A DNA stretch of 32,000 bases from Candidatus Saccharimonadota bacterium. GTDB taxonomy: Bacteria; Patescibacteriota; Gracilibacteria; BD1-5; UBA6164. Positions 2 through 30,663 of this stretch are shown piece after piece. The notes beneath the pieces are model-generated. The model did not search any database and had not been told where the DNA came from. It worked only from the letters and a program-made list of their open reading frames with translations. Within the stretch, counting starts at the first letter, position 1. Every line of letters begins with the position of its first letter. The stretch lies in the NCBI GenBank assembly GCA_965227835.1, contig OZ245768.1, positions 750,001 through 782,000 on the forward strand, written 5' to 3'. A program made the position numbers and the translations under genes.

Positions 2-1516
2 AAGAAGTTTAACAATTTAAAAACTATTATTTTATCAGGACAAGATTTGGATTCTATAATGAGTGATATTTATTTCAAAGAACTTTTGGCTGTTGCTTGA
101 AAAGAACTTATAGAAAAAAACAGAAGGCTAGTTTTTGATTTATATATAGAAAAAAAGAAGCTAGAGCAAGAAACTAGTTCTTTAAAAAAACTAAAAAGGA
201 ATTTTAATGTTAAGAAAAAGATATTGAATGATAAGAAATTGTTTAAAGAAAAAATACTTAAAGTTTCTAAATGACAAGATAGTCTTTATAAGAAATATAT
301 AAAACAAAAGCTAGATACAGAAAAAAACTTGAAGCTTAAAGCTTTTTCTGAGAGAGTAAAATTTTATGCTACATCAAAAAAAGTTCTTAGTAATTCATGA
401 TGTGAGTTTTTGGATGTTTCTAAAAATACACCTGAAGTAAGGACTTTATCTTCTAAGTGTTATGAGTTGAATAAAATTATATTTTTAGAAGCAGAACTTG
501 AAAAAAATAAAAATAAATGAGAAGAAAAAGATAGGTATAATTTTTTTTCATGGCCTGTACCTCCCTACTCGGGTATATCTGCTTATTTTAGGGATAATGA
601 ATATAAAAAGAGATTTGGAACAGATCATGATGCTGTTGATATTATAGCCAGTCAAGGTACTCCAATAGTTGCACCTGCTGATGGTTATGTTATATCATTG
701 AGTGAGCCTTTAGATGATTCTTATGCTTATATAGCTTTGAAACATATAGACTGAAAAGTTAGTGTTTACTGACATGTTAGTGAGATATTAGTTGAGAAAT
801 ATGATTATATAAAATCTTGAGAGATATTTGCTAAAACTTGATGAACTTTTTGAACTTCTTGAGCTTGATATATAACTACAGGTCCTCATCTTCATTTTGA
901 AATTTTGGAAGATAAAGTTGCTGTTGATCCACTTAAAAGTTTGGATTTAAGTTATCTTGATTTTAAGAATTTGCCAGAATATTATAGACTTGATTTTCTT
1001 ATGGATTACAGAGAAAGGACTTGAAAAGATTATAGAGTGAAAGATGAACCTTGAAAAAGAGTTTTTAGGCTTGATTGAAATACAGAAATAGAAAGGCAGA
1101 AATCTTTGCTAAATAAATATGCTAGGAGTGATTTTAGGAACTGGGATATGTGGGTTGAGGAGTCTTTGAGGTGGAACATAGATCCTAGTTTTATGATGTG
1201 TGTATGACTTGCCGAAAGTAGTCTTGGTGTTAATTTAAAAACTCCTTATAATGTTTGAAATGTTTGAAATGTTGATTCTTGAGGTACTTGGACTATGACT
1301 TCTCCTAGGCATTGAATTTGGTGGATGGGCCATACTTTGAATAATAAATATTTAGGTAGTTACAATGAAATATCAAAGCTTAGTTGATATGGTAGAAAAG
1401 GTAATGATCCTATTTATGCTTCAGATCCTGTAAATTGGCATAGAAATGTTATAAAATGTATGTCTACTATCAAGGGACAATATATATGAGATGATCACAA
1501 TTTTAGAACTTATTAG
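2..1516 (+). CDS. Secreted peptidoglycan hydrolase: coiled-coil N-region, M23 (LytM) metallopeptidase domain, C-terminal glucosaminidase/lysozyme-like domain; 5' end lies outside the window
   Basis: The frame is open across the whole span only if TGA is sense. M23 motifs are present: DHDAVDI, GTPIVAPADGYV, Y-G(TGA)-HVS, and TG..TTGPHLHFE. TGA falls at conserved Gly positions (e.g. 752-754, 770-772). The C-terminal part reads ...GLAESSLGVN.... Stop is TAG at 1514-1516. Confidence 0.85.
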
Positions 1517-1534
1517 TTTTTATGAAATTAGAAA

Positions 1535-1557
1535 AGAGGCAACCTACGGCTGCCTCT
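1535..1557. terminator. Bidirectional GC hairpin terminator (copy 1 of a conserved hairpin)
   Basis: AGAGGCAACC-TAC-GGCTGCCTCT, flanked by an A-run and a T-run. It lies between the convergent M23 gene and membrane-protein paralog 1. Confidence 0.6.
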
Positions 1558-1563
1558 TTGAAA

Positions 1564-2237
1564 TCACTCCTTATTTGATTGTCCTTCATACAAGTTAAGT
1601 CCTATCATTGCTACCAAAGCAAGAAAAAGTTGAGGCAAAATAACATATGGAATACCATATGGAACTAAAAATATAATATGTATGGGAATTACATATAATA
1701 GTATCAGTTCAGGCTTACTATCAACAAATACTTGCTTAAATCCATCAAGTTTATATGTAAATAACGTTGTTACTATTAAGGAAATTAAAGCAATTAAAAA
1801 GATATAATATAGAAAATCAGTTAAACCAAAGATAATACCAAAGAAAAAACCAAAAAATAAAGATGAAAAGATATTAAAAAAAGAGAGATAAATATAATTC
1901 CAACTGTTTGAAAAATTCTGTGACTACCACTTTCATAAAAATCCCCTTTTTCGCTCTTTTTTCGATATTTTCCTAGGTATTCTATATATTTGTATCTATA
2001 CAATATAATTGCCTCAAATAATGTTGATATTGCAATCATAATATTAATAGTAAACAACATATCCTTGCTTCCTTGAAAGTATTCTTCAATTTCTTGTGAA
2101 TATACTATCCAAGCTGACATAATTATCAGTAACGACGGTGCTAGTTTTTGATAAAAACGATAATTAAAAAATACATTTTTACCAAAGAAATGACACAACT
2201 TTAAGGGCATGTCATATAAGCTTTGTTTAATATTCAT
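1564..2237 (-). pseudogene. Polytopic membrane protein, paralog 1 of the 3471-4160 gene, split by a frameshift near 1821-1830
   Basis: The 138-aa ORF 1821-2237 (MNIKQSLYDM...) aligns to the N-half of the 229-aa paralog. The C-half (…ELILLYVIPIH…NLYEGQSNKE) continues in another frame over 1564-1827 and ends at TGA 1564-1566. AAGGAGG lies 7 nt upstream of the ATG, and TTGACT-16-TATAAT lies further upstream. Confidence 0.6.
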
Positions 2238-2416
2238 TTTTTCCTCCTTTTAAAACAATTGAAAAGAATAAAAACAAAAATATTATAATAAATTTTATTT
2301 AAAAGTCAATAAAAAATGGTAGAGTCTATCACGAAATGTAACCTTTAGAAGATATGATATACTCTAAAAGATATAATTAAATTTTTGTGATATGAAATAC
2401 TGAATTTTATTAAAAA

Positions 2417-2439
2417 ACAGGCAGCCTACGGCTGCCTGT
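2417..2439. terminator. Conserved GC hairpin terminator (copy 2)
   Basis: ACAGGCAGCC-TAC-GGCTGCCTGT, flanked by A and T runs, directly after the TGA at 2446-2448 of the decayed paralog. Confidence 0.6.
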
Positions 2440-2445
2440 TTGAAA

Positions 2446-3068
2446 TCACTCCTTATTTTGTCCTTCATACAAGTTAAATCCTATCATTACTACCAAAGCA
2501 AGAAAAAGTTGAGGAAGAAAAGCATAGAAAGTACCATATGGAGCTAAGGGTATAAATGGAAATAAGGATATAATATGTATACATATAATAGTATCAGTTC
2601 AACCTTGTTATAAATCAATTTACTCTTATACACCATGTTTGATGTACATAATTTAGTAATCATTTACGAAACTTAATATAAATCCATCTAAATATGAGTC
2701 AAAAATATGATAATGTGATATTATAAGGAATAACATAGAAAGAGTTAATATGATTGAAACAAGGAAATTATGAAAAATGGAAATAATAATAATAATAAGT
2801 GATTATAAAATACCAAGTGGAATAACACCAATTAAGAATCCAAAACCACCAAAATAAGAGAAATAAATATGAAATGTTTCAAATTTATAAGCTCCACTAT
2901 CATAATAAATAGTTTACCAGGTATTCTATATAGTTGTATCTATACAGTATACCTGCCTGAACTAATGTTAGTATTGCAATAATGGTAATGTTAAAGAATT
3001 TAAATCTCCAACCTGAAAGTGAATATACTATCCAAGCTGTCATAATTATCAGTACCGGTGCAGTTTTT
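2446..3068 (-). pseudogene. Decayed, 5'-truncated paralog 2 of the membrane-protein gene
   Basis: Nucleotide and protein similarity to paralog 1 (…APVLIIMTAWIVYS…ILYRYNYIEYL… and the C-terminal …NLYEGQNKE-TGA). It lacks the MNIKQ start region and carries in-frame TAG/TAA stops and deletions. Confidence 0.55.
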
Positions 3069-3441
3069 TGTATTTTATATTTTATTTTTTACCTTTATAT
3101 AAGTAAAAATCAGTAGATTTTATATTGATTGAATTTTATAAAGATAAAGTTAGCTTAAATAAGTCATTTATAGAAATACCTACAATACATATGTACATGA
3201 TCTTCTTCCATTCATATCTTTATTATTATTAAAGATAAAACATTAAAAATAGCTTAATATGTCCTACTTTATTTCAAAGTAAAATATAGGTCATACAATT
3301 TTTCACTTATAAAAAGTGGGTTTTTATAGTTTTGAGAAAATGGATAGAATCTATAACGAAATGCAACTTTTAGAAGACATGATATACTCTAAAAGATATA
3401 ATTAAATTTTTGTGATATGAAAATATGAATTTTATTAAAAA

Positions 3442-3464
3442 ATAGGCAGCCTACGGCTGCCTAT
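3442..3464. terminator. Conserved GC hairpin terminator (copy 3)
   Basis: ATAGGCAGCC-TAC-GGCTGCCTAT, flanked by A and T runs, immediately after the TGA at 3471-3473. Confidence 0.6.
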
Positions 3465-3470
3465 TTGATG

Positions 3471-4160
3471 TCACTCCTTGTTTATATTTATTTGTTTATT
3501 ATTCCTATATAACTTAATACCTATAACTATTATCAGAAAAGTAAAAGCATATAAAAATATATAAGGAACAAAAGTTTGGATAAAGCCATATGTCGCTATT
3601 AATAAAAGTTTTACAGGAATTATATATAGTAGCAATAATTCCATTTTGTTATTTAAATCAATCCCAAGATCAAAAATCGGATCTTTCATTGTAATTAAAA
3701 TTAACTTCACAATTACCAAAGATAATGTAATACCAATTATCAGTGCTCCAATATAAGAACCACGGGTAAGAAAAAAAGCCATAAAACCTAAAACGACACC
3801 CCAAGAAACAGAACAAAGTATGATTGAACTTATACCTAGAAGTTTTAAGTATTTATTTTCAAAGGATTCTTCACCTTCTTTTATATAGTCTCCTAGATAC
3901 TTTATATAATTAAATCGGTACAATATCGCTATTTCAATCAATGTAAGTGTAATAATAATTGTATTAATTACTAAACTAACAATTTCATTTTGAAAACCTT
4001 GCCCAATTTCCTGCATAATCAACACATAAACTAACATAATCAATTGTAAGGATGGCACCAACTTTCCATAAAAATTATAGCTAAAAACTATATTTTTACT
4101 AGAAGAATGACATAACTCTGGAGTTATATCATAATCATATAAGTTTTGTTTAATATTCAT
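3471..4160 (-). CDS. Polytopic membrane protein, 229 aa, unknown function. It is intact in the standard code, contains no in-frame TGA, and terminates at TGA; under table 25 it would extend to TAA at 3435.
   Basis: The ORF is in the supplied track and has about 6 hydrophobic segments. AAGGAGGT lies 7 nt upstream of the ATG, with a TATAAT-containing promoter region at 4161-4233. All 14 Gly codons are GGN. Confidence 0.75.
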   Translation of the reverse strand: MNIKQNLYDYDITPELCHSSSKNIVFSYNFYGKLVPSLQLIMLVYVLIMQEIGQGFQNEIVSLVINTIIITLTLIEIAILYRFNYIKYLGDYIKEGEESFENKYLKLLGISSIILCSVSWGVVLGFMAFFLTRGSYIGALIIGITLSLVIVKLILITMKDPIFDLGIDLNNKMELLLLYIIPVKLLLIATYGFIQTFVPYIFLYAFTFLIIVIGIKLYRNNKQININKE

Positions 4161-4233
4161 TTTTACCTCCTTTTAAAATAATTGAAAAGAATAAAAACAT
4201 ATTTATTATAATAAGTTTTACTCGTAACGCAAC

Positions 4234-4264
4234 AAAAATAGTTGAAGAAAATTCAACTATTTTT
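4234..4264 (-). terminator. Intrinsic terminator downstream of the 4296-5669 gene
   Basis: AAAAATAGTTGAA-GAAAA-TTCAACTATTTTT: a perfect 13-bp stem with a T-run on the minus strand. Confidence 0.55.
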
Positions 4265-4295
4265 ATTTTATTAAAATATATAAAGTTATTAATAG

Positions 4296-5669
4296 TTAAG
4301 ATACATCTCTAAGTGATGCACTAGCAAATTCTCTTTGAAGTTTTTTTTCGTATCAATCTCAAATTATAAAATCCATTGTTTCTTTTAAACTAAAACCTCA
4401 TATATCTCTATTTGTAAATTCTAATCATTTTAAAAGCATAGAATTATATACTTCCATAACCTTTTTCTCAAAAATCAATTTAAAGTCCTTAAAATCTAAT
4501 CAGATTATTTCAGAAAATTCACCACAAAGACCATATATTTCTATAAACCTAGATAAAAATCATTCACCATGTATAGATCAAATATCATCTAGTAATATTT
4601 CTCATATATCAAGGCTTACTCAGTTTATGGTAGTATCTACAAGCAAACAATCAGAACCAAATCTATATGATAAACCTAAACCATGCAATAATCCATGATA
4701 ATACATTATATTATGTATAAAATTACTTACTATTTCTTCTTTATTATCATTTTTAAAAATTAAATTCAAATCTAGTCATCATTTAAACTTTAAAATATCA
4801 GCTACTCTAGTTGATACTCAGAAGTTTGCATATATCATATTACCATGAGGTCATTTTTTTAAAATCTCCTCTATCAATTTATCAAAAGATCAAAAACCCT
4901 TAACTTCATCCATACTAAAAAAAGATTTTGAAAATTGAACAATATTTGTTAGAGAATTATCATCCTCTTTAATAATAGATTTTATAGTTTCTATGTAATT
5001 AGATCAATCAATTCATTTTTTAAGTTCCGTAACTGATATTGGCATAATTGTAGGAGCAAATTCTCAATTTATTTGCAAATTTACTTCTTGAATATAAGCT
5101 CATATTTTAGCCTCCATTAATAGTCTTTGTGAAGTTTCAGATCATATAAAAGGAGGGGCATAAGAACCTTCTTTAAGTTTCCTAAATTTATTACCACGGT
5201 ATAAATCTGCTCATTTTAAATTTATGCTTATACCTTTTTTAAAATAATTGGTACTTCTTCATCAATGAAATTCTCTTCTCCATCAATTTTTAAGAGTATT
5301 TTTGGAACTTAAAATGTTACTAACTTTTGAAGGAGTCCATAAAGTTAATCATTTGAAGAAATTTATATCTCGAGAATTAGATTTTAACAATGCCAACTCA
5401 CCTGTTGTTTTTACTCATAATGCCTTACTTAAATGTTTATAGTATTTTTCCATAAATAATTCTTTTTCTCTTTTTTTTCCTAATATTGGAGATAGTAATT
5501 CTAATAATTCTATATCTACTTCTACATCTGAATCTGCATTTATGCCTCAATATTCTTCTGATTTTTCATCTAATCATATTTCTAAATATCATTCGTCTGC
5601 AAAAAATAAACTAGGATTCTCAGTAAATCTAACATTTTTATTCTCTAAAGCTTTTTTTAATATTTCCAT
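4296..5669 (-). CDS. Hypothetical cytoplasmic protein, 457 aa, no family recognised
   Basis: A continuous minus-strand frame under table 25 with many TGA-Gly codons (plus-strand TCA is abundant). ATG at 5669, TAA at 4296-4298. Sequence runs MEILKKALENKNVRF…HGNMIYANFG…YYHGLLHGLG…. Confidence 0.7.
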
Positions 5670-5802
5670 ATATTTTTTATTAATTTTTAAAGTTTTTACA
5701 TTTTAATTATTATAATTTATTTGTCAAGAAAAAAATTACATTAATTTAATTAAAGTATGGTAAAATAAAAATAGTAAAATTTTATTTTCTTATTTTGAAT
5801 AT

Positions 5803-6798: not shown

Positions 6799-8004
6799 GG
6801 GACCTCTGCAATATTGTTGAAAAGAACAAGAAAAAAGTGATTTTGAATAAAAATCACTTTTTTTGAAGAATATATAAGATAATTTCTATGAATTATGCCT
6901 TTTTTTAGGTATAATTTCCAAATTTAGGCACAATTCACCTATTAGAAAGCTATATATACCTCCTTGCCAATAGTTCAAAATTATAAATAGCACAAGATAA
7001 AAACCAGTGCATAGCATTCTTAACTAATCATCTATATCTTGTTTTATAATTTCAATATTTAGCCTTTAAAATAGAAAAAGGATGTTCTACTCTTGCCCTA
7101 ATAGTAGATTTAATTCTATTTTGTTCTTTTTGATAAGAAGTCAACGGATTATTTCTAGATCATCTTTCATTGAACTCTCACTTAATTCATAACTCATCTA
7201 AAAATTTTATTTTATCTTTACTTATATAGGCACTATCTCAATATGCCTCTTCACTCTCATCTCAAGTCATTAAAGTATCAGATAATTGTGAATCATGTAT
7301 CTTAGCTGTCGTATATGTTGTATTCATTACAAAGTCTCCTCTCTTTGTTGTTTCAATATGAGCTTTATATCAATGATAACTTCTTCAATTCTTCTTTGTA
7401 AAACTAGCTTCCTTATCTCTTGTATTTTCTCATTTATTATTCTTTCTTCATTTTGGTGATTCTATTATAGTACCATCTTGAATAAATCACTTTTCTACTG
7501 TAAATCACATTTCAGCTAAAATAAATTGAGTCATTGTAAATATAGTTTCCTGACTTCAGTTTTCTGATAATTCATTTCTAAATCTACATATTGTTGTTTC
7601 ATCTGGTATATCTTTAGACTCCGATATTCATAGAAACTTTTGAAAGCTATTTCTGTCTCTTATTTGATCTTCTATTTCCGGATCTGATAATCCATATAAT
7701 CATTGAAGAAATAGTATTTTTAACATTTTTTGTATTTCCATTCTTGGTCTTCAAACTCATCAATCTGATATTTCTCTAGATAAATTAATTTTATTTGATA
7801 TTGATTCCCATGGGACTACTTTATCTAATTTTGTTAGAAACTTTTCTGTTCTTGTAATTCATAACTCATTTTGGAAATAATTCAAAAATGTTTGTTGTTC
7901 TTTAAATGGTGACATAATCATTAAAAAAAAATTAAAATATTTATCATATTTTAATCTTTTTATTATATTTTTGTAATTTAAATCTATCTTTTTGCAGAGG
8001 TCCC
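6799..8004 (-). mobile_element. IS5-family insertion sequence (about 1.2 kb)
   Basis: 13-bp perfect terminal inverted repeats GGGACCTCTGCAA (6799-6811) and TTGCAGAGGTCCC (7992-8004). Flanking 4-bp direct repeat TTAT (6795-6798 and 8005-8008). A single DDE transposase ORF lies inside. Confidence 0.8.
6950..7915 (-). CDS. IS5-family DDE transposase (321 aa)
   Basis: The table-25 translation shows an N-terminal InsH-like region (…GRPRMEIQKMLKILFLQGLYGLSDPEIEDQIRDRNSFQKFLG…) and a DDE_Tnp_1 C-terminus (…YGDSAYISKD…RARVEHPFSILKAKYG…RYRGL.KN). It contains many TGA-Gly codons. Confidence 0.85.
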
Positions 8005-8085
8005 TTATGTTATTAGAATAAAACAAACAAATCAAAGAAAACTATAAAAAATAGGTTAATACCAAAAATGTGTTCTATTTTTTTA

Positions 8086-11686: not shown

Positions 11687-12890
11687 GAGCCTGTTGTAAA
11701 TTAAACTTTGACTATTAAAAAGAGAAAAAAGAGATATAATTAGATAGTAATTATATTCTAAGAAAATACCTATGTGAGAATCAAATCAAATAAGTTTTGT
11801 TATCCTAAACGAGCTAATTCCAGAAAATCATCAATATCGTAAATTTAAGAAATTGTGGAACTTTGATTGAGTAAATAAAATACTAAAAAATATAGATCTA
11901 TGAAAAACTCATGTATGATATTGAGTAAAAAAATTATTTCTATGTTTACTAATCCAGTTTATGGAAGATCTATCAGATAGAGAGTTAGAGAAATATCTTG
12001 CAGAAAATTTAGCTGGTAAATGGTTTTGCTGATTTAAATTAACAGATAAAACTCCAGATCATAGTATATTCACAAGAGCAAGAAAAAAGATATGAACAAA
12101 TGAACTATCAAAGATATTTGAAGATTTAAAAAATCAATTATCAAATAAGGGTTATATGAGTGAAGTGTTTACATTTGTAGATGCTTCTCATTTAGTTACT
12201 AAAGCTAATTTATGGGAAGAAAGAGATAAATGAATAAAAGAATGATATGAAAAAATGAATAATGAAACTCTTCCAAAAGTTGCTAATGATAAGGAAGCTA
12301 AAATTTGATCTAAGTGAAAAAATAAATTTTGGTATGGTTATAAAAAACATGCTAGTGTTGATATGCAATCTTGAATGATAAACAAGATAGCTATAACTCA
12401 AGCTAATGTAACAGATGCAAAGTGAATGAAGCATGTATTACCAAGTTCATGAGCAGTATATGCTGATAAGTGATATTGTATTTGACCGGCTGTAATATCA
12501 ACAAAAAAGAAGTGATTACATCTATGTGCAATAAAGAAAAATAATATGAAAGATAAGAACAAGGATAAAGATAAGTTTTATTCTAAACTTAGATCTCCTT
12601 ATGAGAGAGTATTTTCAAAAATGAATCATAGAGTGAGGTATAAGTCTGTAGTAAAAAATCAGTTTACTGCATTTATGGAAGCTATATCTTTTAATCTCAA
12701 AAGATTAGTTGTTTTAGAGGAAGTCCCAATAGTTTAGATTAGTTTCCTTAGGTGGATTGCGTCTAAAATCCTAAATTATATATAAAAATGGCTATAATTT
12801 AACAAAAAATAGATGAATTTTATAAATCTTTCATCTATTTAGTACTTTTCTTAATTAAAACTCTTTTTAAAGTCAAAACGCAACAGACCC
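11687..12890 (+). mobile_element. IS5/IS1182-like insertion sequence (about 1.2 kb)
   Basis: Imperfect inverted repeats: GAGCCTGTTG…TTTGACT.TTAAAAAGAG (11687-11724) against the reverse complement of CTCTTTTTAAAGTCAAAACGCAACAGACCC (12861-12890). Flanked by direct AAACT at 11682-11686 and 12891-12895. Confidence 0.7.
11772..12737 (+). CDS. IS5-family DDE transposase (321 aa)
   Basis: The table-25 translation reads …FMEDLSDRELEKYLAENLAGKWFCGF…DASHL…YADKGY…RSPYERVFSKMN..VRYKS..KN. It is in frame with supplied ORF 12546-12737. TAG stop. Confidence 0.85.
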
Positions 12891-16873: not shown

Positions 16874-17296
16874 CTAAGAAAACCTGCGAATTTCAATTTC
16901 TCTCTGTTCTAGAATATTTGTCCTAAATAAACTTACAGACAAATCTGGAGTATAATGGTCTTTTATAAGCTCTGGCCACTCTATCAAAATAATTCAATTA
17001 TTATTATCCAAGATGTCTTCAGCTCAAATAGAGAAAAACTCCCCATAGTTACTAAGTTTATATAAATCAAAATGAAATATATCTATTTTTTCTAAATCTA
17101 AAATTCAAAAATATTTATTATAATAAGTATAAGTGGGAGAACTAACAACACCTTTAACTGATAATATATTGTTTAATATATATTTAATCATAGTAGTTTT
17201 TCAAGCTCCAAGATCTCCATAAAAAAAAATTATATCTCATTTTTTCAGAGAAAAACTAATATTTTTGATTTCTTTTAGACTATATTTTAACTTCAA
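16874..17296 (-). CDS. tsaE: tRNA threonylcarbamoyladenosine (t6A) biosynthesis ATPase TsaE
   Basis: FFYGDLGAGKTT P-loop (third Gly is TGA, plus-strand TCA at 17201-17203), then SPTYT and EWPE motifs. Probable TTG start. TAG stop. Confidence 0.85.
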
Positions 17297-17398
17297 AATA
17301 AGTTAATTTAAAAATTAATGTGATTTTTTTTGCAAATAATAAAAAAGTATTATACAATTGTTATGTAAAAATATTTTTTATTAATTAAAACTAATCTT

Positions 17399-17749
17399 AT
17401 GGAAACTCTAATAGAAGTAAATAAAAAAGAAGAAAACTGAATATTAATATTCAATATTTCAGGAGAACTAGATGAAACAAATGCCGATAAAACTTTTAAC
17501 GGTATATATAAAGAGATATGAGATTTTAACTCAAAAAAAATTCTTTTAGATCTTAGTGGATTAAAATATCTTAACTCAAAATCTATATGATATATAGCAG
17601 ATATATATTCAAATGTAGAAGATTCTGATAGTAAAATGTATATATCTAATTGTGATGAATGAGTAAAAGATGTTTTGGAACTAGTATGAATTACTACTAT
17701 TGTTCCAACAGTAGATACAAATGAAGATGCTATAAAGGAAATGAGCTAA
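17399..17749 (+). CDS. STAS-domain anti-sigma-factor antagonist-like protein (SpoIIAA family)
   Basis: 116 aa: …ISGELD…ILLDLSGLKYLNSKSIGYI…V.ELVGI…, a typical STAS pattern under table 25. Confidence 0.75.
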
Positions 17750-17787
17750 GTTTAAAAAGACTTAGGTAAATGATTTTTCTAATAAAT

Positions 17788-17813
17788 AAGAGTAAGGAAC
17801 AGTTACTCTTTTT
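17788..17813 (+). terminator. Intrinsic terminator after the STAS gene
   Basis: AAGAGTAA-GGAACAG-TTACTCTT followed by TTT. Confidence 0.5.
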
Positions 17814-17890
17814 ATATAATTATATGGAGCTTGAAGTTCACACTGTTGTTTAAATATTAATTTATAATCTTTTAATTTTAATTTCATGTT

Positions 17891-18580
17891 ATGGAGAAAA
17901 TATTAATTATATTTCTTGGAGTATTTTTTTTACTAACAGGTTGCTCAAATTTTGAGAAAGAAATTATTGATGAAAATCAAGAAACAATTATTTTAAATAG
18001 TAAAATATTAGAATTTTTTTTTAACAATGTTGGTTTTTTTGCAAATACTGAATTAATAAATAATTTTACAAGATATAAATCATCTGAAGAAGAATATACT
18101 TACTTGAATAAACTAGAAATTGTTGACAATAGGACCTCTCTAAACAGACTTGCTTTATTTAGTAAATCTCCATTAGATGATGTGAAAATAAAAATATTTC
18201 CTTGCTCTCAAATGCCTTTAAGTTTTGAAAAAAAAGTAAAAATTTTGTGAGATTGTTTTGAAATTAATCCTGGTACAACTTTTGAAGTTTCAAGAGAGGA
18301 TTTTTTAGTTTTCCCTGAGAAAATATTTAAAAACATTGAAGATTATAATTTTGGACAATCTAAAGAAAAAGGAGGAGTCCTTTTAATGTCATCTACCAAC
18401 CAAGAACATTGGGACGAAACATTTTCTGGACATTATATTGAAAATAATAATCATGAAGTATATCTCTCTTTATTTTATCCTAATAGTAAAGAAAGTGAAA
18501 AAACAAAAATATATTTTACTATGTATTTCAATTTTAATGGATACTATTATATTGATTTTAAAGATAGAAAATATAAGTAA
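17891..18580 (+). CDS. Putative lipoprotein (229 aa if the single TGA at 18248-18250 is read as Gly)
   Basis: Lipobox FLLTGC. Supplied ORFs 17891-18250 and 18386-18580 are in the same frame, and the 135-nt gap between them has no TAA or TAG. Confidence 0.6.
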
Positions 18581-20151: not shown

Positions 20152-20627
20152 AAAACAAAAAAGCTGGATTATTCCAGCTTTAATATCTTACTGCCACTTC
20201 CCTTCTCTCTTGCTGAACTTTGATTGATTTACTTCAAGTATTGTAACACCAGCAATCTTACAATACTTATAAACGAAGTTCTTTATCAATTTTATTCCAG
20301 ACTATACTGAAACAACTATTCCTCTAACGACGCTAATTGAGGAAAAAATCGCTAGTTGCATCACTTAAAACTCAGTACATAACTGAACTTTAAGGATAGT
20401 TTCTAAAACTATGCACAAAAGAGTAAGGGACAGTCGGATGATAGGGTTTATAACTTTAACCCCTTAAGTATGTATTTCTCAAAGAATAAATGCTTTAATT
20501 AATTGATTAAAAAAGGGAACGGAGATCCCTAGTTAATCTAAAAACAATTATTCAGGAACAAACATCATCCATTTAAATTCATGTAGTAAGAAGAACCTTT
20601 TTGATGTGTCAGTATCTCTAACACACT
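20152..20627 (-). ncRNA. Unclassified structured ncRNA, paralog A (about 470 nt including the terminator)
   Basis: A consensus promoter lies upstream. The body is visibly GC-richer than its flanks and has no plausible ORF on either strand. A long-range helix pairs 20416-20431 with 20193-20212. It ends in hairpin AAGCTGGA-TTAT-TCCAGCTT (20161-20180) plus a T-run on the minus strand. Confidence 0.55.
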
Positions 20628-20803
20628 GGGTATTATATTAAAAATATATTATGAGTCAAATAAAAAATAGTCAATTAATCTTGGTTGCCTATTTAAAAGG
20701 AAAAATAAGACCTTTTTAATAGCTAAAATTATAATGAAAAATACTTCTTTATCCAATTTATTGATGAAAAATGTATAAAGTTTTTGTACAAAAAACATAA
20801 AAA
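20606..20803. repeat. 198-bp direct repeat, copy 1 (promoter block plus the first ~22 nt of the transcript)
   Basis: By eye it is identical base for base to 21258-21455. Confidence 0.9.
20632..20659 (-). promoter_or_regulatory. Sigma70-type promoter of ncRNA A
   Basis: On the minus strand: TTGACT (20659-20654), a 16-nt spacer, then TATAAT (20637-20632). The predicted start is around 20625-20627. Confidence 0.6.
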
Positions 20804-20808
20804 TAATA

Positions 20809-20860
20809 CAAAAATAGATTAATATAATTTCAAAAATAGATTAATATAATTTCAAAAATT
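20809..20860. repeat. Tandem duplication of a 22-bp unit
   Basis: CAAAAATAGATTAATATAATTT occurs twice, followed by a partial third unit (CAAAAATT). Confidence 0.8.
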
Positions 20861-20917
20861 AATAAAATAAATAATTTTTAAATGATATAAGCTATTTTAG
20901 TTTGTTATTTAAATTCT

Positions 20918-21279
20918 TACAAAAAAAACTGTGATTTTATCACAGTTTTATATTTTAACACTCCTTATCTCTCTTAACCAAACTTTAGGAAAGCTTCAGA
21001 TAATATTGAGATGCAACACATTACCGAGTGAAGCATATCATACCGTCATTAGCAGTCCTTATTCCCGTATTTTTGTACGTGGGTGGGAGCAATCAGATCT
21101 CCTATGTGGAGGTCATGCTAATTGCATTCGGAGAAGAGAGAGTAGAGTGCCCAGGCCGTACATTACCTGGAACTTACTTTATGATTTACCAAACGGACCT
21201 AAAAAAACTTAAAGTTTGGTAAACCAAAGGACATCATCATGACACCCGATTTGAAAAGTGTCAGTATCTCTAACACACT
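20918..21279 (-). ncRNA. Unclassified structured ncRNA, paralog B (about 360 nt including the terminator)
   Basis: It has the same promoter and 5' leader as A and is the most GC-rich stretch of this locus. A closing helix pairs 21130-21151 with 20958-20975, and nested helices include ATTAGCA/TGCTAAT. It ends in hairpin AACTGTGAT-TTT-ATCACAGTT (20927-20947) plus a T-run on the minus strand. Confidence 0.55.
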
Positions 21280-21455
21280 GGGTATTATATTAAAAATATA
21301 TTATGAGTCAAATAAAAAATAGTCAATTAATCTTGGTTGCCTATTTAAAAGGAAAAATAAGACCTTTTTAATAGCTAAAATTATAATGAAAAATACTTCT
21401 TTATCCAATTTATTGATGAAAAATGTATAAAGTTTTTGTACAAAAAACATAAAAA
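21258..21455. repeat. 198-bp direct repeat, copy 2
   Basis: Identical to 20606-20803. Confidence 0.9.
21284..21311 (-). promoter_or_regulatory. Sigma70-type promoter of ncRNA B
   Basis: An identical copy of TTGACT-16 nt-TATAAT, offset by 652 bp from the promoter of A. Confidence 0.6.
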
Positions 21456-27117: not shown

Positions 27118-28521
27118 CTAATCTTCCAAGCTTCCTTTAACTTCACTAAGAAAATTCAAAGCCTCCAAAGGAGTAAGACTATTTATATCTGTTTTTTTCA
27201 ATTTTTCTTCTACTTGTGATACTTTTTTTACTTCTAAATTATCATCTTTTAGGCCTCTATTTTCATTTTTAGGGTTTAAAAACAAATCCATGGAAAGTTG
27301 GGAGTTGGAGAAACTATTTTTTTCCAAAATTTTAAGCATTTTTTTAGCTTCATCTATTATTGATGAGTTAATTCAAGCTAGTTTAGCAACTTCAAGACCA
27401 AAAGATTTCTTTATTCCTCATGGTATTATTTTCCTCAAAAATACCAATTCTCAATTGTTTTCTCAAACAGATACAGAGAAATTTTTAACTCCGTGAAGAC
27501 TTTTTGATTCATCTATAAGTTCATGATAATGAGTAGCAAAAAGAGTTTTAGCTTTTATTTTATCATGATTTTCTTTTAATATACCCCAAGCTAGACTCAT
27601 TCCATCAAATGTGGAAGTACCTCTACCTACTTCATCTATTATCACAAAAGAATTAGAGCTTGAATTGTTTATTATATTAGCTACCTCCTGCATTTCAAGC
27701 ATAAATGTGGATTGACCAAAATATAGATTATCACTAGCTCAAATCCTAGAAAAGATTCTGTCTGTTATAGGTATAGTTCAGCTAGAAGCAGGAATGTAAC
27801 TACCTAAATGTGCCATAAGTATGATAAGAGCATTTTGTCTTAAAAAGGTAGATTTTCATCACATATTTGGTCAAGTGATTATATTGACGAAATTATCTTT
27901 TGTTAATTCTAGATCGTTTGATACAAAATCCTTTTCCGTTTGTTCAACTACAGGATGTCTAGCATTTTTTATATCTAGTTTGTAGTCTTTGGTAATTTTT
28001 GGTTTATTGTAGTCAGAAAAATATGCTAGGTTTGAAAGAGAAACTTCAAAATCTATAAAAGATGTTTTTTTTGATAGATTTTTTATTTCGCTATAACCTT
28101 CAAGGATTTCAGCTCTAATTTCTTGAAATAGTTCGTATTCTCTGGAGTTAAGATATGATGAAGCTTCTAAAAATTTCTTTTCAAAGTTTATTAGATCTTG
28201 GGTAACATATCTGGAAGCATTAACAAGTGTTTGTTTTTGTATAAAGTCTTCAGGTGCTTTTGAAACAAAAGATTTTGGGATTTCAATAAAATACCCAGAA
28301 ATATTTGTGTATTTTATTTTTAGGTTTTTTATACCTGTTTTTTCAATAAGTGTATTTTGATAGTTTGCCAGCCAGTTTTTAGAATTATCTAAAATATCTC
28401 TGTATTCATCTACTCTGCTATCAAATCAGTCTTTTATAATATTTCATCAAGTCAAAAGTAAATCTGGTTCATCTTTTATAGATTTCTCTATTAAATCAAT
28501 TATGTCTTGTATTTTTTGCAA
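27118..28521 (-). CDS. mutS: DNA mismatch repair protein MutS, C-terminal part only (clamp/lever, ATPase and C-terminal dimerisation regions); the N-terminal mismatch-binding and connector domains are absent
   Basis: 467 aa from a TTG start, with TAA three codons upstream. Motifs: RHPVVE, the ITGPNMGGKSTF Walker A (three TGA-Gly codons, plus-strand 27848-27880), [21 protein letters not shown], and C-terminal …[10 protein letters not shown]…. It joins supplied ORFs 27118-27339 and 27463-27702. Confidence 0.85.
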
Positions 28522-28693
28522 GGGTTTGGGGTTTTGTTATGTATAAATAAATATTATTAAATTTTATTTTAAAAAAACATATTATTAAGCTCATAAATTT
28601 AATAATATGTTTTTGAGTCACTTATTCAAATATATTTTACTATATATTGTGCTTTTAATTTAATAAAATATATTGAAAACTATATATTCATAC

Positions 28694-29338
28694 TTAATTA
28701 TCATCATCAGTATCATCACCAGCAGCATCAGCAGCAGCATCAGCAGCATCAGCAGCAGCAGCAGCAGCAACTGATGAGTTTTTAATAACTATCTTTTTAG
28801 TATTGACATCAGTACTAACCAAATCCTGTCCTGTTGATATATCATCACCTTGAGCTACTTCAGTATCTCTACCATTAGTATCAACTCATAGTTCATATCT
28901 ATTATCATCAGTTCAATTATCTACACTTCCATTTGCTTTATTAGAAATATTTCATGAATTTTCAAAAGCAGTAGAAATTTCATAAGATCATTGTTCTATT
29001 CAATTATCATCATCTCATACATCATATACATAACCACATCTAGAACCGTTACATGTTTGGTCATGTTTTGGATCTTCTGCTAAATTAGGCATATAAATCT
29101 TTACAGAAGTTAAATCACCTATCCAGTCAACTCATCATTGAGGATAGACTGATTCATCTTGATAAAATTGCTCTATAGAACCTTGAAGTGCTTTTATATC
29201 ATTTATCCTAGTAGAATCTCTAGCCTTTTGTATTTGACTTGTGTATACAGAAGTAGCACCAGTAGCTAATATTCAAATAATTGTTATAACTACAAGCAAC
29301 TCTATAAGAGTAAAAGCTTTTTTTATTGTTTTTTTCAT
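28694..29338 (-). CDS. Type IV pilin (PilA-like) with an Ala/Asp-rich low-complexity C-terminus
   Basis: MKKTIKKAFTLIELLVVITIIGILA prepilin N-terminus. 214 aa. The C-terminal …SSVAAAAAADAADAAADAAGDDTDDDN is encoded by a GCT/GAT triplet tract at 28701-28772. Confidence 0.85.
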
Positions 29339-29496
29339 AATAAAAAAGGTTAAAATATTTAATTTATGTATATTACACAAAATTATTATATCTTTCTTGT
29401 TTTGTTTTGTCAAAAAAACAAAACAAAAATTTATTGATTAAAGTGTTATCTGTATTATAATTTATTAATTAATTTAGCTTATTAAATAAAAAATTT

Positions 29497-29889
29497 ATGT
29501 ATTACTTTTTGTTTTTCTTTTTAGTTTTAATGGTATTTTCGATATTTTTAATTTTAAAGTTTTCCAGAAAAAAAAGGCTAAAAAAAGAAAGTAAGTTAAA
29601 ACTAGAAAGTCATTTTTATGAAATAAAAAAACTTAGTTCAAGTAAAGAAAGAATTACAGATTTTGATAAACTTTATCATAAAATACTTAGAGAGCTTAGA
29701 TATAGTTGAACTTTTTGAGAAATACTTAAAAGTAAACCAAAAATAATTGATGATATAGAGGAATTATGGGAATTGCATAAACTTAGAAATAAGTTGGTGC
29801 ATGATTTTTCTTCTATTTCAGAGAAAACTTTGGAAGAAAAAGCTTTGAGGTATGAAAAATTGGTATATGATTTTTTGGATAAGCTTTAG
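29497..29889 (+). CDS. Hypothetical small membrane-anchored protein (130 aa)
   Basis: Supplied ORF 29497-29709 continues through a TGA to TAG at 29887-29889. It has an N-terminal TM helix followed by a helical domain. Confidence 0.6.
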
Positions 29890-29906
29890 TATTTATATTT
29901 TATAGA

Positions 29907-30642
29907 ATGTATATTTGATCTGAAAGAAAAAAATTGAGATTAAAAGATTATAATTATTCAAGTAATTGATATTATTTTGTCACGATATGTACGAAAGATA
30001 GAATGAATTATTTTGGTGAGATAATTGATTGAAGGATGATTTTAAACGAATATGGGAAGATTGCTGAAAAAGAGATTTTAAAAACACCATATATAAGAGA
30101 AGAAATAAAAATTGATGAATTTATTATAATGCCAAATCATTTACATTTGATTGTTGTGATTGAAAATGGGGTAAATTTTGGGAATGTGGGGAATGACGGA
30201 AATATATCCAATGTGGGGAATGTTTCAAACATGGGGAATGCGGGAAATGTATCCACCGTGAAAAATGTATCCACCATGCCAACCGTAGAACACAGGCCTG
30301 CGTTCCCTACGGTTGGGACGTTCATCACGGTTGGGACGTTCACCACGGTTGGAACGTTCACCACAATCATCACAATCCCCCAATTCAATACAAAAAAATT
30401 ACCAACAACAAAACCATTACACAAAAAACAAATTATCAAACACAATACAAAGAATAAAATCACAAATAACATTAAACATAAGAAAACAATTAAATGATTT
30501 TACATTTAAATGGCAAAAATCATTCTTTGATAAAATTATACGAACAAAAGATCAATTAAATAAAACAAGAAAATACATTATAAACAATCCTTTAAAATGG
30601 GAATTTGATGAGAATAACCACAAAAAAAGACCCTCTAATTAG
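29907..30642 (+). pseudogene. IS200/RAYT-like HUH (Y1) transposase gene interrupted by a GC-rich tandem-repeat insertion and a +1 frame change
   Basis: The N-part in frame 0 reads MYIGSERKKLRLKDYNYSSNGYYFVTICTKDR…IMPNHLHLIV (HUH motif). The C-part in frame +1 (30289-30642) reads …LSNTIQRIKSQ…FKWQKSFFDKIIR…RKYIINNPLKW (catalytic Tyr region). The two cannot be joined without a frameshift somewhere in 30289-30430. Confidence 0.75.
30177..30362. repeat. Intragenic GC-rich tandem repeats
   Basis: Degenerate GGGGAATGT-type units span about 30177-30280. Three 18-bp units ACGGTTGG(G/A)ACGTTCA(T/C)C span 30309-30362. Confidence 0.8.
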
Positions 30643-30663
30643 AGAGCCTTTTTATATTTTATC

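What the first reader, a model, noticed from the sequence alone, without database searches (positions are those of the whole stretch)
1517..4233. A standard-code-style gene island (no TGA-Gly in the two readable copies, TGA-terminated, Shine-Dalgarno-led) inside a TGA=Gly genome
Seen: three tandem minus-strand paralogs of a roughly 229-aa polytopic membrane protein (3471-4160 intact, 1564-2237 frameshifted, 2446-3068 5'-truncated with internal stops). They differ from every other gene in the window in three ways. (i) The intact and frameshifted copies have zero in-frame TGA among 25 Gly codons (14 in the intact gene, 11 in the frameshifted copy), whereas TGA supplies roughly 55-65% of Gly codons in neighbouring genes. 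At about 0.4 per codon, 14 consecutive GGN codons has a chance of roughly 3e-6. The truncated copy cannot be scored for Gly-codon use: it has in-frame TAG/TAA stops and at least one TGA before its terminal one. (ii) All three copies reach a conserved AAGGAG-TGA directly in front of a GC hairpin terminator, so TGA looks like the intended stop. (iii) The intact and frameshifted copies have canonical AAGGAGG(T) ribosome-binding sites 7 nt before the ATG plus their own TTGACT/TATAAT-type promoters. I found no SD sequence upstream of the start codon of any of about 20 host-type genes checked here. Inference: the cluster was acquired from, or belongs to, a standard-code entity such as a Firmicute-like donor, plasmid or phage, and has not adapted to the host code. 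Alternatively it marks a chimeric assembly. The decay of two of the three copies fits foreign genes that do not function well in the recoded host.
Basis: partly seen in the sequence, partly recalled or inferred. Interest (0 to 1): 0.72.

Follow-up and report, generated by a model that had tools for sequence, protein, structure and literature searches.

The report
Foreign standard-code genes in a recoded bacterium
A bacterium that reads the stop codon TGA as glycine carries a 2.7-kb insert of three copies (one intact, two decaying) of an unknown membrane-protein gene still written in the standard genetic code. This is a clear but fairly ordinary trace of recent gene transfer across a genetic-code boundary.

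Summary
The window comes from a Gracilibacterium (about 24% G+C) in which TGA encodes Gly and supplies 64% of Gly codons in 25 host genes. At 1517-4233 there are three tandem minus-strand paralogs of a 229-aa, six-helix membrane protein. They have 0 TGA among 38 recognisable Gly codons and end in AAGGAG-TGA before a G+C-rich hairpin terminator. The two copies that keep a 5' end have the only real Shine-Dalgarno sites in 32 kb.

New evidence supports foreign, standard-code origin:
- CGN is used for 4 of 7 Arg codons, against 4 of 213 in the host.
- ATT, AAG and NCG codons are enriched, and CpG is twice the host level.
- The paralogs diverged to dS of about 1.4 without gaining a single TGA-Gly codon.
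- The site is empty, or holds a different gene, in related species.

An independent metagenome contig from a sister strain has the same right-hand junction, so a chimeric assembly is unlikely.

The protein has no homologue among 1.84 billion representative proteins, so neither donor nor function is identified. A second Gracilibacterium carries an Aer-like chemoreceptor gene with the same signature, so the pattern recurs.

Verdict: a real, recently acquired standard-code islet that is now decaying. It is a new variant of a known kind and of moderate interest.

The parts
2..1516 (+). Left flank: host M23 peptidoglycan endopeptidase gene (3' 504 codons, TAG stop at 1514-1516). 22 TGA among 35 Gly codons, no SD.
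   Evidence: Orthologues occur in many Gracilibacteria.
1533..1559 (-). Intrinsic terminator of copy A: AAAGAGGCAGCC-GTA-GGTTGCCTCTTT followed by TCTAATTT. It starts 4 nt after the TGA.
   Evidence: dG -20.4, z -5.1. The stem carries G-C where copy C has U-A and copy B has C-G, a compensatory change.
1564..2237 (-). Copy A. A full-length paralog with one frameshift in a T7 run (1876-1882). 13 GGN, 0 TGA, 2 CGN. Ends AAGGAG-TGA (TGA at 1564-1566).
2243..2249 (-). Shine-Dalgarno site AAGGAGG of copy A, 5 nt before the ATG.
2282..2309 (-). Promoter-like TTGACT-16-TATAAT of copy A (11 of 12 matches).
   Evidence: Homologous to the copy C promoter region (repeat D3, 87% over 104 nt).
2312..2414 (-). 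Conserved non-coding segment downstream of the copy B terminator. Together with the terminator and gene end it is 89% identical over 147 nt to the segment after copy C.
   Evidence: (repeat D1, 2312-2458 against 3337-3483).
2415..2441 (-). Intrinsic terminator of copy B: AAACAGGCAGCC-GTA-GGCTGCCTGTTT followed by TTTAATAA.
   Evidence: dG -21.1, z -5.8.
2446..3068 (-). Copy B, a pseudogene. It lacks the promoter, SD and first ~32 codons, and has several frameshifts and in-frame stops. Closest to copy A (about 85% nt identity). Recognisable fragments hold 11 GGN and 0 TGA. Ends AAGGAG-TGA.
3337..3439 (-). Conserved non-coding segment downstream of the copy C terminator.
3440..3466 (-). Intrinsic terminator of copy C: AAATAGGCAGCC-GTA-GGCTGCCTATTT followed by TTTAATAA. 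In code 25 the reading frame runs through this hairpin to a TAA at 3435-3437 inside the T-run.
   Evidence: dG -19.2, z -5.5. The public protein P0001 is the 241-aa read-through form.
3471..4160 (-). Copy C, the only intact gene. 229 aa, six hydrophobic helices, 14 GGN, 0 TGA, 2 CGN. Ends AAGGAG-TGA (TGA at 3471-3473).
4166..4172 (-). Shine-Dalgarno site AAGGAGG of copy C, 5 nt before the ATG.
   Evidence: Identical in the sister-strain contig L001.
4205..4232 (-). Promoter-like TTGCGT-16-TATAAT of copy C.
   Evidence: Read directly. Homologous to the copy A promoter.
4231..4267 (-). AT-rich, host-type terminator hairpin of g4296. It marks the right edge of the islet.
   Evidence: inverted repeat I21; dG -16.6, z -6.0.
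4296..5702 (-). Right flank: g4296, a 457-aa lineage-specific gene with host-type coding (28 TGA among 44 Gly codons, no SD). It occupies the same variable M23-MscS slot.

Best explanation
The segment 1517-4233 is a small islet acquired horizontally. It evolved in a replicon that uses the standard genetic code and Shine-Dalgarno-dependent initiation, either a low-G+C bacterium or a mobile element or phage compatible with code 11. It was inserted, with at least two already diverged paralogs, into a variable slot between the M23 peptidase and MscS genes of this code-25 Gracilibacterium. This happened before two sampled strains split.

Each copy is a self-contained monocistronic unit: a sigma-70-type promoter, an AAGGAGG ribosome-binding site, an ORF for a six-helix membrane protein, a TGA stop and a G+C-rich intrinsic terminator.

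The following steps are inferred, not shown. In the present host TGA is read as Gly, so ribosomes should continue for 12 codons through the terminator stem to a TAA inside the terminator's T-run. This gives a 241-aa protein with the tail G-HQIGSRRLPIF. If the transcript ends before that TAA, the result is a non-stop message. Nothing has yet adapted the genes to the host code, and the array is eroding: copy B is dead, copy A is frameshifted and only copy C is intact.

The biochemical role is unknown. My guess, at low confidence, is an accessory membrane protein of the immunity or exclusion type that mobile DNA often carries in diverged tandem copies.
For: Shown by tool results:
1. TGA = Gly in the host and supplies 64% of Gly codons. 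The island has 0 of 38, Fisher p = 6e-12.
2. There are independent codon anomalies. CGN:AGR is 4:3 in the island against 4:209 in the host (p = 2.5e-5). ATT over ATA gives p = 2e-4, AAG p = 3e-3 and NCG p = 5e-3. Host membrane proteins do not share these shifts. CpG o/e is 0.52-0.55 in copies A and C against 0.25 for the host.
3. The only functional-looking SD sites in 32 kb are here. Strong SD is almost absent from about 195 ORFs of 12 Gracilibacteria loci.
4. Copies C and A are 41% identical in protein, with dS about 1.4 and dN about 0.54. Only 6 of 19 Gly columns are shared, yet every Gly codon is GGN. The divergence therefore took place where TGA was not Gly.
5. The hairpin right after the TGA carries U-A, C-G and G-C at the same stem position in the three copies. 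The corresponding 'extension' residues change (I/T/R and I/V/L). It has evolved as RNA structure, not as coding sequence, so TGA was the stop.
6. The site is lineage-specific. One relative (M23 68% identical) has M23 directly followed by MscS. Another (69-70%) has a fatty-acid desaturase gene there.
7. An independent ENA contig from a sister strain (97-99.6% identity, lacking both IS copies) has the same g4296/copy C junction, SD and first 40 codons.
8. There is a positive control. Gracilibacterium BROCD037 (L010, 16985-18494) carries a full-length Aer-like PAS-MCP gene. It is SD-led, has 0 TGA in 22 Gly codons where its neighbours use TGA for 75%, ends in TGA plus hairpin, and has one frameshift.

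From the literature: phages without in-frame TGA, whose TGA stops are backed by nearby stops, are predicted to infect Gracilibacteria (PMC10746230).
Against: - No donor is known. There is no homologue at all in 5.8 billion clustered proteins, in 1.84 billion representatives searched with a profile, in plasmids, phages or IMG/VR, or in JGI metagenomes by DNA pattern.
- G+C (25%) equals the host's, so bulk composition does not mark the island.
- Overall synonymous-codon likelihood, excluding Gly, is no worse than that of one host membrane protein, g13948.
- There is no integrase, transposase, tRNA or flanking repeat at the borders. The two IS5-like elements nearby are host-coded and absent from the sister strain.
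- Only the right junction has independent support.
- The flanks of the copies are far better conserved (87-89%) than the coding sequences (56%). This needs an extra assumption, either gene conversion or constraint on the regulatory parts.
Confidence: 0.75

Rival explanations
1. Selection, rather than recency, keeps the cassette 'code-neutral'. On this reading it belongs to an element that moves between the code-25 Gracilibacterium and standard-code bacteria. It would therefore have to avoid in-frame TGA and keep SD, promoter and terminator signals that work in both.
For: The paralogs are saturated at synonymous sites and still TGA-free. Regulatory flanks are better conserved than the coding sequence. 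An in-frame TAA backs up the TGA 12 codons later in all three copies. Code-11-compatible phages predicted for Gracilibacteria show exactly this design (PMC10746230).
Against: There are no phage or mobility genes in or next to the islet. There are no matches in phage, plasmid or viral collections. Two of three copies are decaying, which argues against current selection. A TAA within 12 codons is expected by chance at 24% G+C. In the cited study all integrated elements were code 25.
Confidence: 0.12
2. A native Gracilibacteria gene family has unusual expression needs. These could be very high translation through an SD, or expression when the UGA-reading tRNA-Gly is scarce. Such needs would select for GGN and for an SD.
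For: Gene-to-gene scatter in TGA use exists. The lipoprotein gene 17882-18580 has 1 TGA in 10 Gly codons with otherwise host-like codons.
Against: This does not explain the CGN, NCG and CpG excess or the ATT and AAG shifts. It does not explain a terminator that evolves as RNA directly after a TGA. It does not explain absence from the orthologous site of relatives. It does not explain the lack of any homologue in other Gracilibacteria.
Confidence: 0.07
3. The segment is an assembly chimera or contaminant from another organism.
For: All coding signals differ sharply from the neighbours. The left junction has no independent confirmation.
Against: The same right junction is present in an independently assembled contig of a different genotype. 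The insert sits neatly between a host stop codon and a host terminator. G+C matches the host. The contig is 1.49 Mb.
Confidence: 0.03
4. The pattern is chance in an ordinary host gene.
For: None beyond the small size of the genes.
Against: p is about 1e-4 for copy C alone, even with overdispersion. Four other codon contrasts and the SD sites add to this.
Confidence: 0.01

Closest known systems
Recently acquired, unameliorated genomic islets (the classical compositional plus phyletic signature of horizontal transfer)
   Same: Atypical codon choice and dinucleotide content. Lineage-specific presence in a variable intergenic slot. Orphan gene content. Ongoing pseudogenisation.
   Different: The strongest marker here is the genetic code itself: 0 of 38 Gly codons are TGA against 64% in the host, and TGA is the gene's stop. 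The translation-initiation signal (SD in an SD-less genome) is the second marker. Bulk G+C is the same as the host's. No mobility genes or att-like borders were found.
Code-11-compatible phages predicted to infect Gracilibacteria and Absconditabacteria (Liu et al. 2023, mBio, PMC10746230)
   Same: No in-frame TGA. Where TGA is the stop, another stop follows in frame (here a TAA 12 codons on). Association with a code-25 host.
   Different: Those are free phage genomes over 20 kb linked by CRISPR spacers. In that study every integrated element was densely TGA-coded. Here a 2.7-kb chromosomal array has no phage gene and no match in phage collections.
Aer-like PAS-MCP gene in Gracilibacterium BROCD037
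   Same: SD-led, TGA-free (0 of 22 Gly codons), TGA-terminated, followed by a hairpin and T-run, and interrupted by a frameshift, inside a code-25 genome.
   Different: It is a single gene with clear homologues in standard-code Proteobacteria (32% identity, full length). It is not an orphan tandem array.
Natural and engineered 'genetic-code firewalls' against gene transfer (for example recoded E. coli, PMC6207430)
   Same: Concerns whether genes written in one code work in a cell that uses another.
   Different: Here the transfer goes in the permissive direction, from standard code into a stop-to-sense recoded host. The predicted cost is only a C-terminal extension. Nothing here has been tested experimentally.

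Membership tests
Horizontally acquired genomic islet | Codon or oligonucleotide usage departs from the host genome | tested here: met
   GGN/TGA p = 6e-12, CGN/AGR p = 2.5e-5, ATT/ATA p = 2e-4, AAG/AAA p = 3e-3, NCG p = 5e-3. CpG o/e 0.48 against 0.25. Bulk G+C does not differ.
Horizontally acquired genomic islet | Absent from the orthologous site of related genomes | tested here: met
   L019 has M23 directly followed by MscS. L002, L015 and L016 have a desaturase gene there instead. A sister strain at 97-99.6% identity does carry it.
Horizontally acquired genomic islet | Donor lineage identifiable by homology | tested here: not met
   No homologue in any collection searched.
Horizontally acquired genomic islet | Mobility signatures at the borders (integrase, transposase, tRNA, direct repeats) | tested here: not met
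   No tRNA in the window. No flanking repeat. The nearest transposases (6950-8041, 11751-12737) use TGA for 85-87% of Gly and are absent from the sister strain.
Standard-code (table 11) gene | No in-frame TGA. TGA, TAA or TAG ends the conserved protein. | tested here: met
   Copy C is open for 229 codons in table 11. All three copies end at an aligned AAGGAG-TGA.
Standard-code (table 11) gene | Sequence after the stop does not evolve as coding sequence | tested here: met
   Compensatory stem changes U-A, C-G and G-C occur with non-conservative changes in the would-be residues. The sample is only three copies.
Standard-code (table 11) gene | Translation actually stops at TGA | not testable with these tools
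   In this host TGA should be read as Gly. The public annotation reads through to 241 aa. Proteomics is needed.
Code-11-compatible phage or prophage of Gracilibacteria | No in-frame TGA, and TGA stops backed by a nearby alternative stop | tested here: met
   TAA lies 12 codons after the TGA in all three copies. This is expected by chance at this G+C.
Code-11-compatible phage or prophage of Gracilibacteria | Phage hallmark genes (terminase, portal, tail, integrase) or similarity to phage genomes | tested here: not met
   PHROGs gave nothing below E = 0.08. There were no hits in INPHARED or IMG/VR.
Code-11-compatible phage or prophage of Gracilibacteria | CRISPR spacer match from a Gracilibacteria array | not tested
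   No spacer collection was available.
Intrinsic (rho-independent) terminator | G+C-rich stem-loop followed by a T-run at the 3' end of a gene | tested here: met
   12-bp stems, 3-nt loop, dG -19 to -21, z about -5.5, followed by T4-T6.
Integron cassette array | Promoterless cassettes separated by attC sites, with an integrase nearby | tested here: not met
   Each intact cassette has its own promoter-like site and SD. The inverted repeat is a perfect short hairpin with a T-run, not an attC. There is no integrase.
Any described protein family for the 229-aa product | Significant match to a Pfam, NCBIfam, PHROGs or PADLOC model, or a confident fold | tested here: not met
   Best E-values were 0.3, 0.47 and 0.08, with none in PADLOC. 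AlphaFold2 mean pLDDT was 44.6, so no fold search was run.

The most novel reading that the evidence does not exclude
The array is not a passive leftover. It is a cassette kept readable in both codes because it shuttles, on a phage or other element not yet sampled, between the code-25 Gracilibacterium and the standard-code bacteria it lives on. Alternatively it is expressed in those bacteria. It would then be a physical trace of the symbiont-host gene flow that CRISPR data only hint at, and a possible handle on the unknown host.
Probability: 0.1. Interest if true: 0.8.

Novelty: new variant of a known kind. Interest (0 to 1): 0.5.

Why it matters
It shows, in a chromosome rather than a free phage, that a stop-to-sense recoded bacterium can take up and keep genes written in the standard code. 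It also shows that such genes can be recognised by a simple four-part signature: SD-led, TGA-free, TGA-terminated, with a terminator right after the TGA.

The same signature picked out a clearly foreign chemoreceptor gene in another Gracilibacterium. A genome-wide screen with it could therefore do three things:
- list recent imports into code-25 lineages;
- date them by how far TGA-Gly has crept in;
- where homologues exist, point to donors that may be the still unknown hosts of these episymbionts.

The case also sets up a testable prediction. Read-through of the old TGA stop drives ribosomes into the transcription terminator. This may explain why imported genes decay.

The limits are plain: the gene's function and donor are unknown, and transfer followed by slow amelioration is expected biology.

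Tried and rejected
- Homology. A word-indexed search of 5.8 billion proteins and a profile HMM search of 1.84 billion representatives returned only the window's own two products. Nothing was found by tblastn or blastn against PLSDB plasmids and INPHARED phages. Nothing was found by a peptide-pattern scan of IMG/VR. The stop-plus-terminator DNA pattern matched nothing in JGI metagenomes or IMG/VR. tblastn in code 25 against all fetched Gracilibacteria loci also found nothing.
- Family libraries. Pfam, NCBIfam, PHROGs and PADLOC gave nothing significant.
- Structure. AlphaFold2 on the three-row alignment gave pLDDT 44.6, too poor for a fold search.
- Fragment alignments. Aligning copy B fragments with MAFFT produced bad alignments (A3, A4). 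I dropped them and used A2.
- Fetching the source genome. Look-ups of P0001 and P0005 were not on record, and the genome is not a GTDB representative. A genome-wide survey and a check of the 16S anti-SD tail were therefore impossible.
- Overall synonymous-codon likelihood. The island is at the atypical end, but one host membrane protein scores the same. I rely on specific codon contrasts instead.
- Promoter scan. It is not informative in AT-rich DNA.
- Readings rejected. It is not an integron cassette array (no attC, the cassettes have their own promoters). It is not a type I toxin (229 aa; the PepG1 hit has E = 0.47). It is not a prophage (no phage genes). It was not delivered by the neighbouring IS5-like elements (they are host-coded and absent from the sister strain).
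Full report
**Host and genetic code.** The window is 24% G+C. Long ORFs appear only when TGA is read as sense. In the MutS ATPase domain, 6 of 9 TGA positions align with Gly of E. coli MutS, including the Walker A GPNMGGKST motif, and none with Trp. The TsaE P-loop and the pilin leader agree. Relatives found through the neighbouring M23 peptidase gene are all named Gracilibacteria or Patescibacteria. The window's own genome is a 1,489,121-bp contig in NCBI/ENA. It is not among the GTDB representatives and could not be fetched. In 25 host genes TGA supplies 280 of 439 Gly codons (64%), and stops are TAA or TAG.

**The observation.**
- Copy C (3471-4160) is intact: 229 aa, six hydrophobic helices, 14 GGN, no TGA.
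- Copy A (1564-2237) is full length apart from one frameshift in a T7 run (1876-1882). It has 13 GGN and no TGA.
- Copy B (2446-3068) has lost its promoter, SD and about 32 codons and carries several frameshifts and stops. Its recognisable fragments still show 11 GGN and no TGA.

The chance of 0/14 is 7e-7 by simple binomial and 1e-4 with a beta-binomial fitted to the host genes. Island against host gives Fisher p = 6e-12.

All copies end in AAGGAG-TGA, 4 nt before a 12-bp G+C-rich hairpin and a T-run (dG -19 to -21 kcal/mol, z about -5.5).

AAAGGAGG(T/A)AAAA-ATG precedes copies C and A. None of 25 host starts has AGGAG or GGAGG, and these are the only two sites in 32 kb where AGGAGG precedes a real start.

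Promoter-like hexamers are at chance frequency in this AT-rich DNA. Only their conservation between copies A and C counts, and host genes have similar promoters.

**New evidence for foreign origin.**
- Codon choice. The island uses CGN for 4 of 7 Arg codons, the host for 4 of 213 (p = 2.5e-5). At the conserved ILYR position copy C has CGA where copies A and B have AGA, so CGA meant Arg where these genes evolved.
- Other codons. ATT is preferred over ATA (p = 2e-4), AAG is enriched (p = 3e-3) and so are NCG codons (p = 5e-3). Three host membrane proteins show none of these shifts.
- CpG. CpG o/e is 0.52-0.55 in copies A and C, against 0.25 for the rest of the window and 0.07 in both flanking conserved genes.
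- Literature. CGN-box codons are depressed in these low-G+C lineages. [quoted passage not shown] Some island codons may therefore be poorly read, or even misread, in this host. That is a possibility, not a result.

**History of the copies.** Copies C and A share 41% of residues and 56% of nucleotides in aligned codons. dS is about 1.4 (saturated), dN about 0.54, and dN/dS about 0.4, so they evolved as proteins under constraint. Only 6 of 19 Gly-containing columns are Gly in both, yet every Gly codon is GGN. New Gly codons therefore kept arising as GGN, which would not be expected in a genome where two thirds of Gly codons are TGA. The divergence must have taken place in a TGA-free setting, or under selection against TGA. 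The array was probably acquired already diverged.

The non-coding ends are much better conserved than the coding parts: 87% over the promoter, leader and first codons of A and C, and 89% over 147 nt of gene end, terminator and downstream segment of B and C. This points to gene conversion or to constraint on the regulatory parts.

In the terminator stem the same position is U-A in C, C-G in B and G-C in A. Copy A also has a G-U wobble. The residues that a read-through would encode change non-conservatively. The hairpin has evolved as RNA, which makes TGA the original stop.

**Placement.** In one relative (M23 68% identical, L019) the M23 gene is followed after 67 nt by MscS and then the g8369 orthologue. 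In another species (69-70%; L002, L015, L016) a fatty-acid desaturase gene sits between them. In the window the slot holds the island plus g4296. g4296 is a 457-aa gene with host-type coding and no homologue outside this species. The slot is thus a variable site and the island is lineage-specific.

**Assembly artefact?** An ENA metagenome contig (L001, ERZ25074195, 8,660 bp) matches the window at 97-99.6% identity and lacks both IS5-like insertions, so it is a different genotype. It carries the g4296 terminator, the copy C promoter region, the SD and the first 40 codons of copy C, with 2 differences in 361 nt. It ends inside copy C, as expected for an assembly break at a repeat. The right junction is therefore real and older than the strain split. 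The left junction has no independent support.

**What the protein is.** Unknown. There is no homologue in 5.8 billion clustered proteins or in 1.84 billion representatives searched with a profile. Plasmid, phage and viral collections and JGI metagenomes also gave nothing. No family model matches. The AlphaFold2 model is unreliable (pLDDT 44.6). The public protein P0001 is the 241-aa read-through product, with W at the TGA, meaning it was called with code 4.

**A second case.** I scanned about 195 ORFs in 12 Gracilibacteria loci and found strong SD sites almost nowhere. One exception is L010 (Gracilibacterium BROCD037), 16985-18494 on the minus strand. It is a full-length Aer-like PAS-MCP chemoreceptor gene:
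- Pfam finds PAS domains.
- It has 100% coverage and 32% identity to proteobacterial plasmid copies.
- It has an AAAAAGGAG leader and 0 TGA in 22 Gly codons, where its neighbours use TGA for 75%.
- It has a TGA stop followed by a hairpin and T-run, and one frameshift.

This is an unambiguous import from a standard-code bacterium, and it carries the same signature and the same decay. It serves as a positive control for reading the window's island in the same way.

**Mechanism.** Shown: the units have the anatomy of independent standard-code expression cassettes, and the host reads TGA as Gly. Inferred: in this host ribosomes pass the TGA and translate 12 more codons through the terminator stem to a TAA inside the T-run (3435-3437). 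The protein then gains the tail G-HQIGSRRLPIF. Transcripts that end in the T-run may lack a complete stop codon and become non-stop messages. Translation into the stem could also weaken termination. Whether the SD helps or is ignored depends on the 16S tail of this organism, which I could not read. The decay of copies B and A fits relaxed selection after transfer, but this is not demonstrated.

**Comparison with what is known.** The closest described phenomenon is the set of code-11-compatible phages predicted to infect Gracilibacteria. They lack in-frame TGA, and their TGA stops are backed by nearby stops (Liu et al. 2023, PMC10746230). In that study every integrated element was code 25. Here a code-11-style segment is chromosomal but has no phage gene. 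It is best filed as an unameliorated horizontally acquired islet whose clearest markers are the genetic code and the initiation signal.

**Confidence.**
- Foreign standard-code origin: about 0.75.
- Selection-maintained code neutrality on a shuttle element: about 0.1.
- Native gene family with special expression needs: about 0.07.
- Assembly chimera: about 0.03.
- Chance: about 0.01.

**Verdict.** It is moderately interesting as a clean example and as a usable screen. It is not a new kind of system.

Noticed in passing
window 20155-21455: Two G+C-richer, minus-strand non-coding segments fold far better than shuffles: 20925-21250 (z -6.4) and 20155-20605 (z -5.4). Each ends in an intrinsic terminator. 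Each is preceded by one copy of a perfect 198-nt direct repeat (20606-20803 = 21258-21455). There is no Rfam 15 match even at E <= 1. They are candidates for a pair of undescribed structured RNAs sharing a duplicated promoter or leader.
   Followed up: partly
L010 16985-18494 (Gracilibacteria bacterium BROCD037, JACFNZ010000001.1): An Aer-like PAS-MCP chemoreceptor gene written in standard-code style. It is SD-led, has 0 TGA in 22 Gly codons, and has a TGA stop plus hairpin and one frameshift. It sits in a genome that uses TGA for 75% of Gly codons. It is a clear import from a standard-code bacterium.
   Followed up: partly
window 6950-8041 (-) and 11751-12737 (+): Two IS5-like DDE transposase genes (DUF772 + DDE_Tnp_1) with very high TGA-Gly use (85-87%). 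Both are absent from the sister-strain contig L001. They are therefore recent insertions of elements native to code 25.
   Followed up: partly
window 27118-28536 (-): The mutS reading frame holds only the C-terminal ~470 residues (core, clamp and ATPase domains). A pilin gene (28694-29437) lies directly upstream, where the N-terminal mismatch-binding half should be. This may be a truncated mutS.
   Followed up: no
window 17882-18580 (+): A lipoprotein gene has only 1 TGA among 10 Gly codons, about 7e-4 by my own binomial estimate at the 64% host rate. Its other codon choices are host-like and it has no SD. It may be an older import or a chance outlier.
   Followed up: partly
window 29883-30650 (+): An ORF runs into a G/T/N/V-rich repetitive stretch (GNVGN..., TVGTF...). 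It has 12 GGN against 4 TGA, and the highest CpG o/e in the window (0.88). Its N-terminus reminded me of Y1/RAYT transposases, but this was not tested and there is no Pfam match.
   Followed up: no
window 4296-5702 (-), g4296: A 457-aa gene with no family and no homologue outside this species occupies the same variable M23-MscS slot as the island. It has host-type coding (64% TGA) and holds 2 of the host's 4 CGN codons. The slot seems to have been filled in two layers with different histories.
   Followed up: partly
Public proteins P0001, P0003 and P0005 of this genome: The database products carry W at TGA positions. P0001 ends ...NKEWHQIGSRRLPIF, and identity to the Gly translation is only 90-96%. 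The gene calls used here were evidently made with code 4, although TGA is Gly in this organism.
   Followed up: no
window 3374-3402 (+): A promoter-like site (AAGACA-17-TATAAT) lies on the opposite strand inside the conserved segment downstream of copy C. It points back into the terminator and the 3' end of the gene. A possible antisense transcript could explain why this non-coding segment is conserved. At this G+C such matches are at chance level.
   Followed up: no
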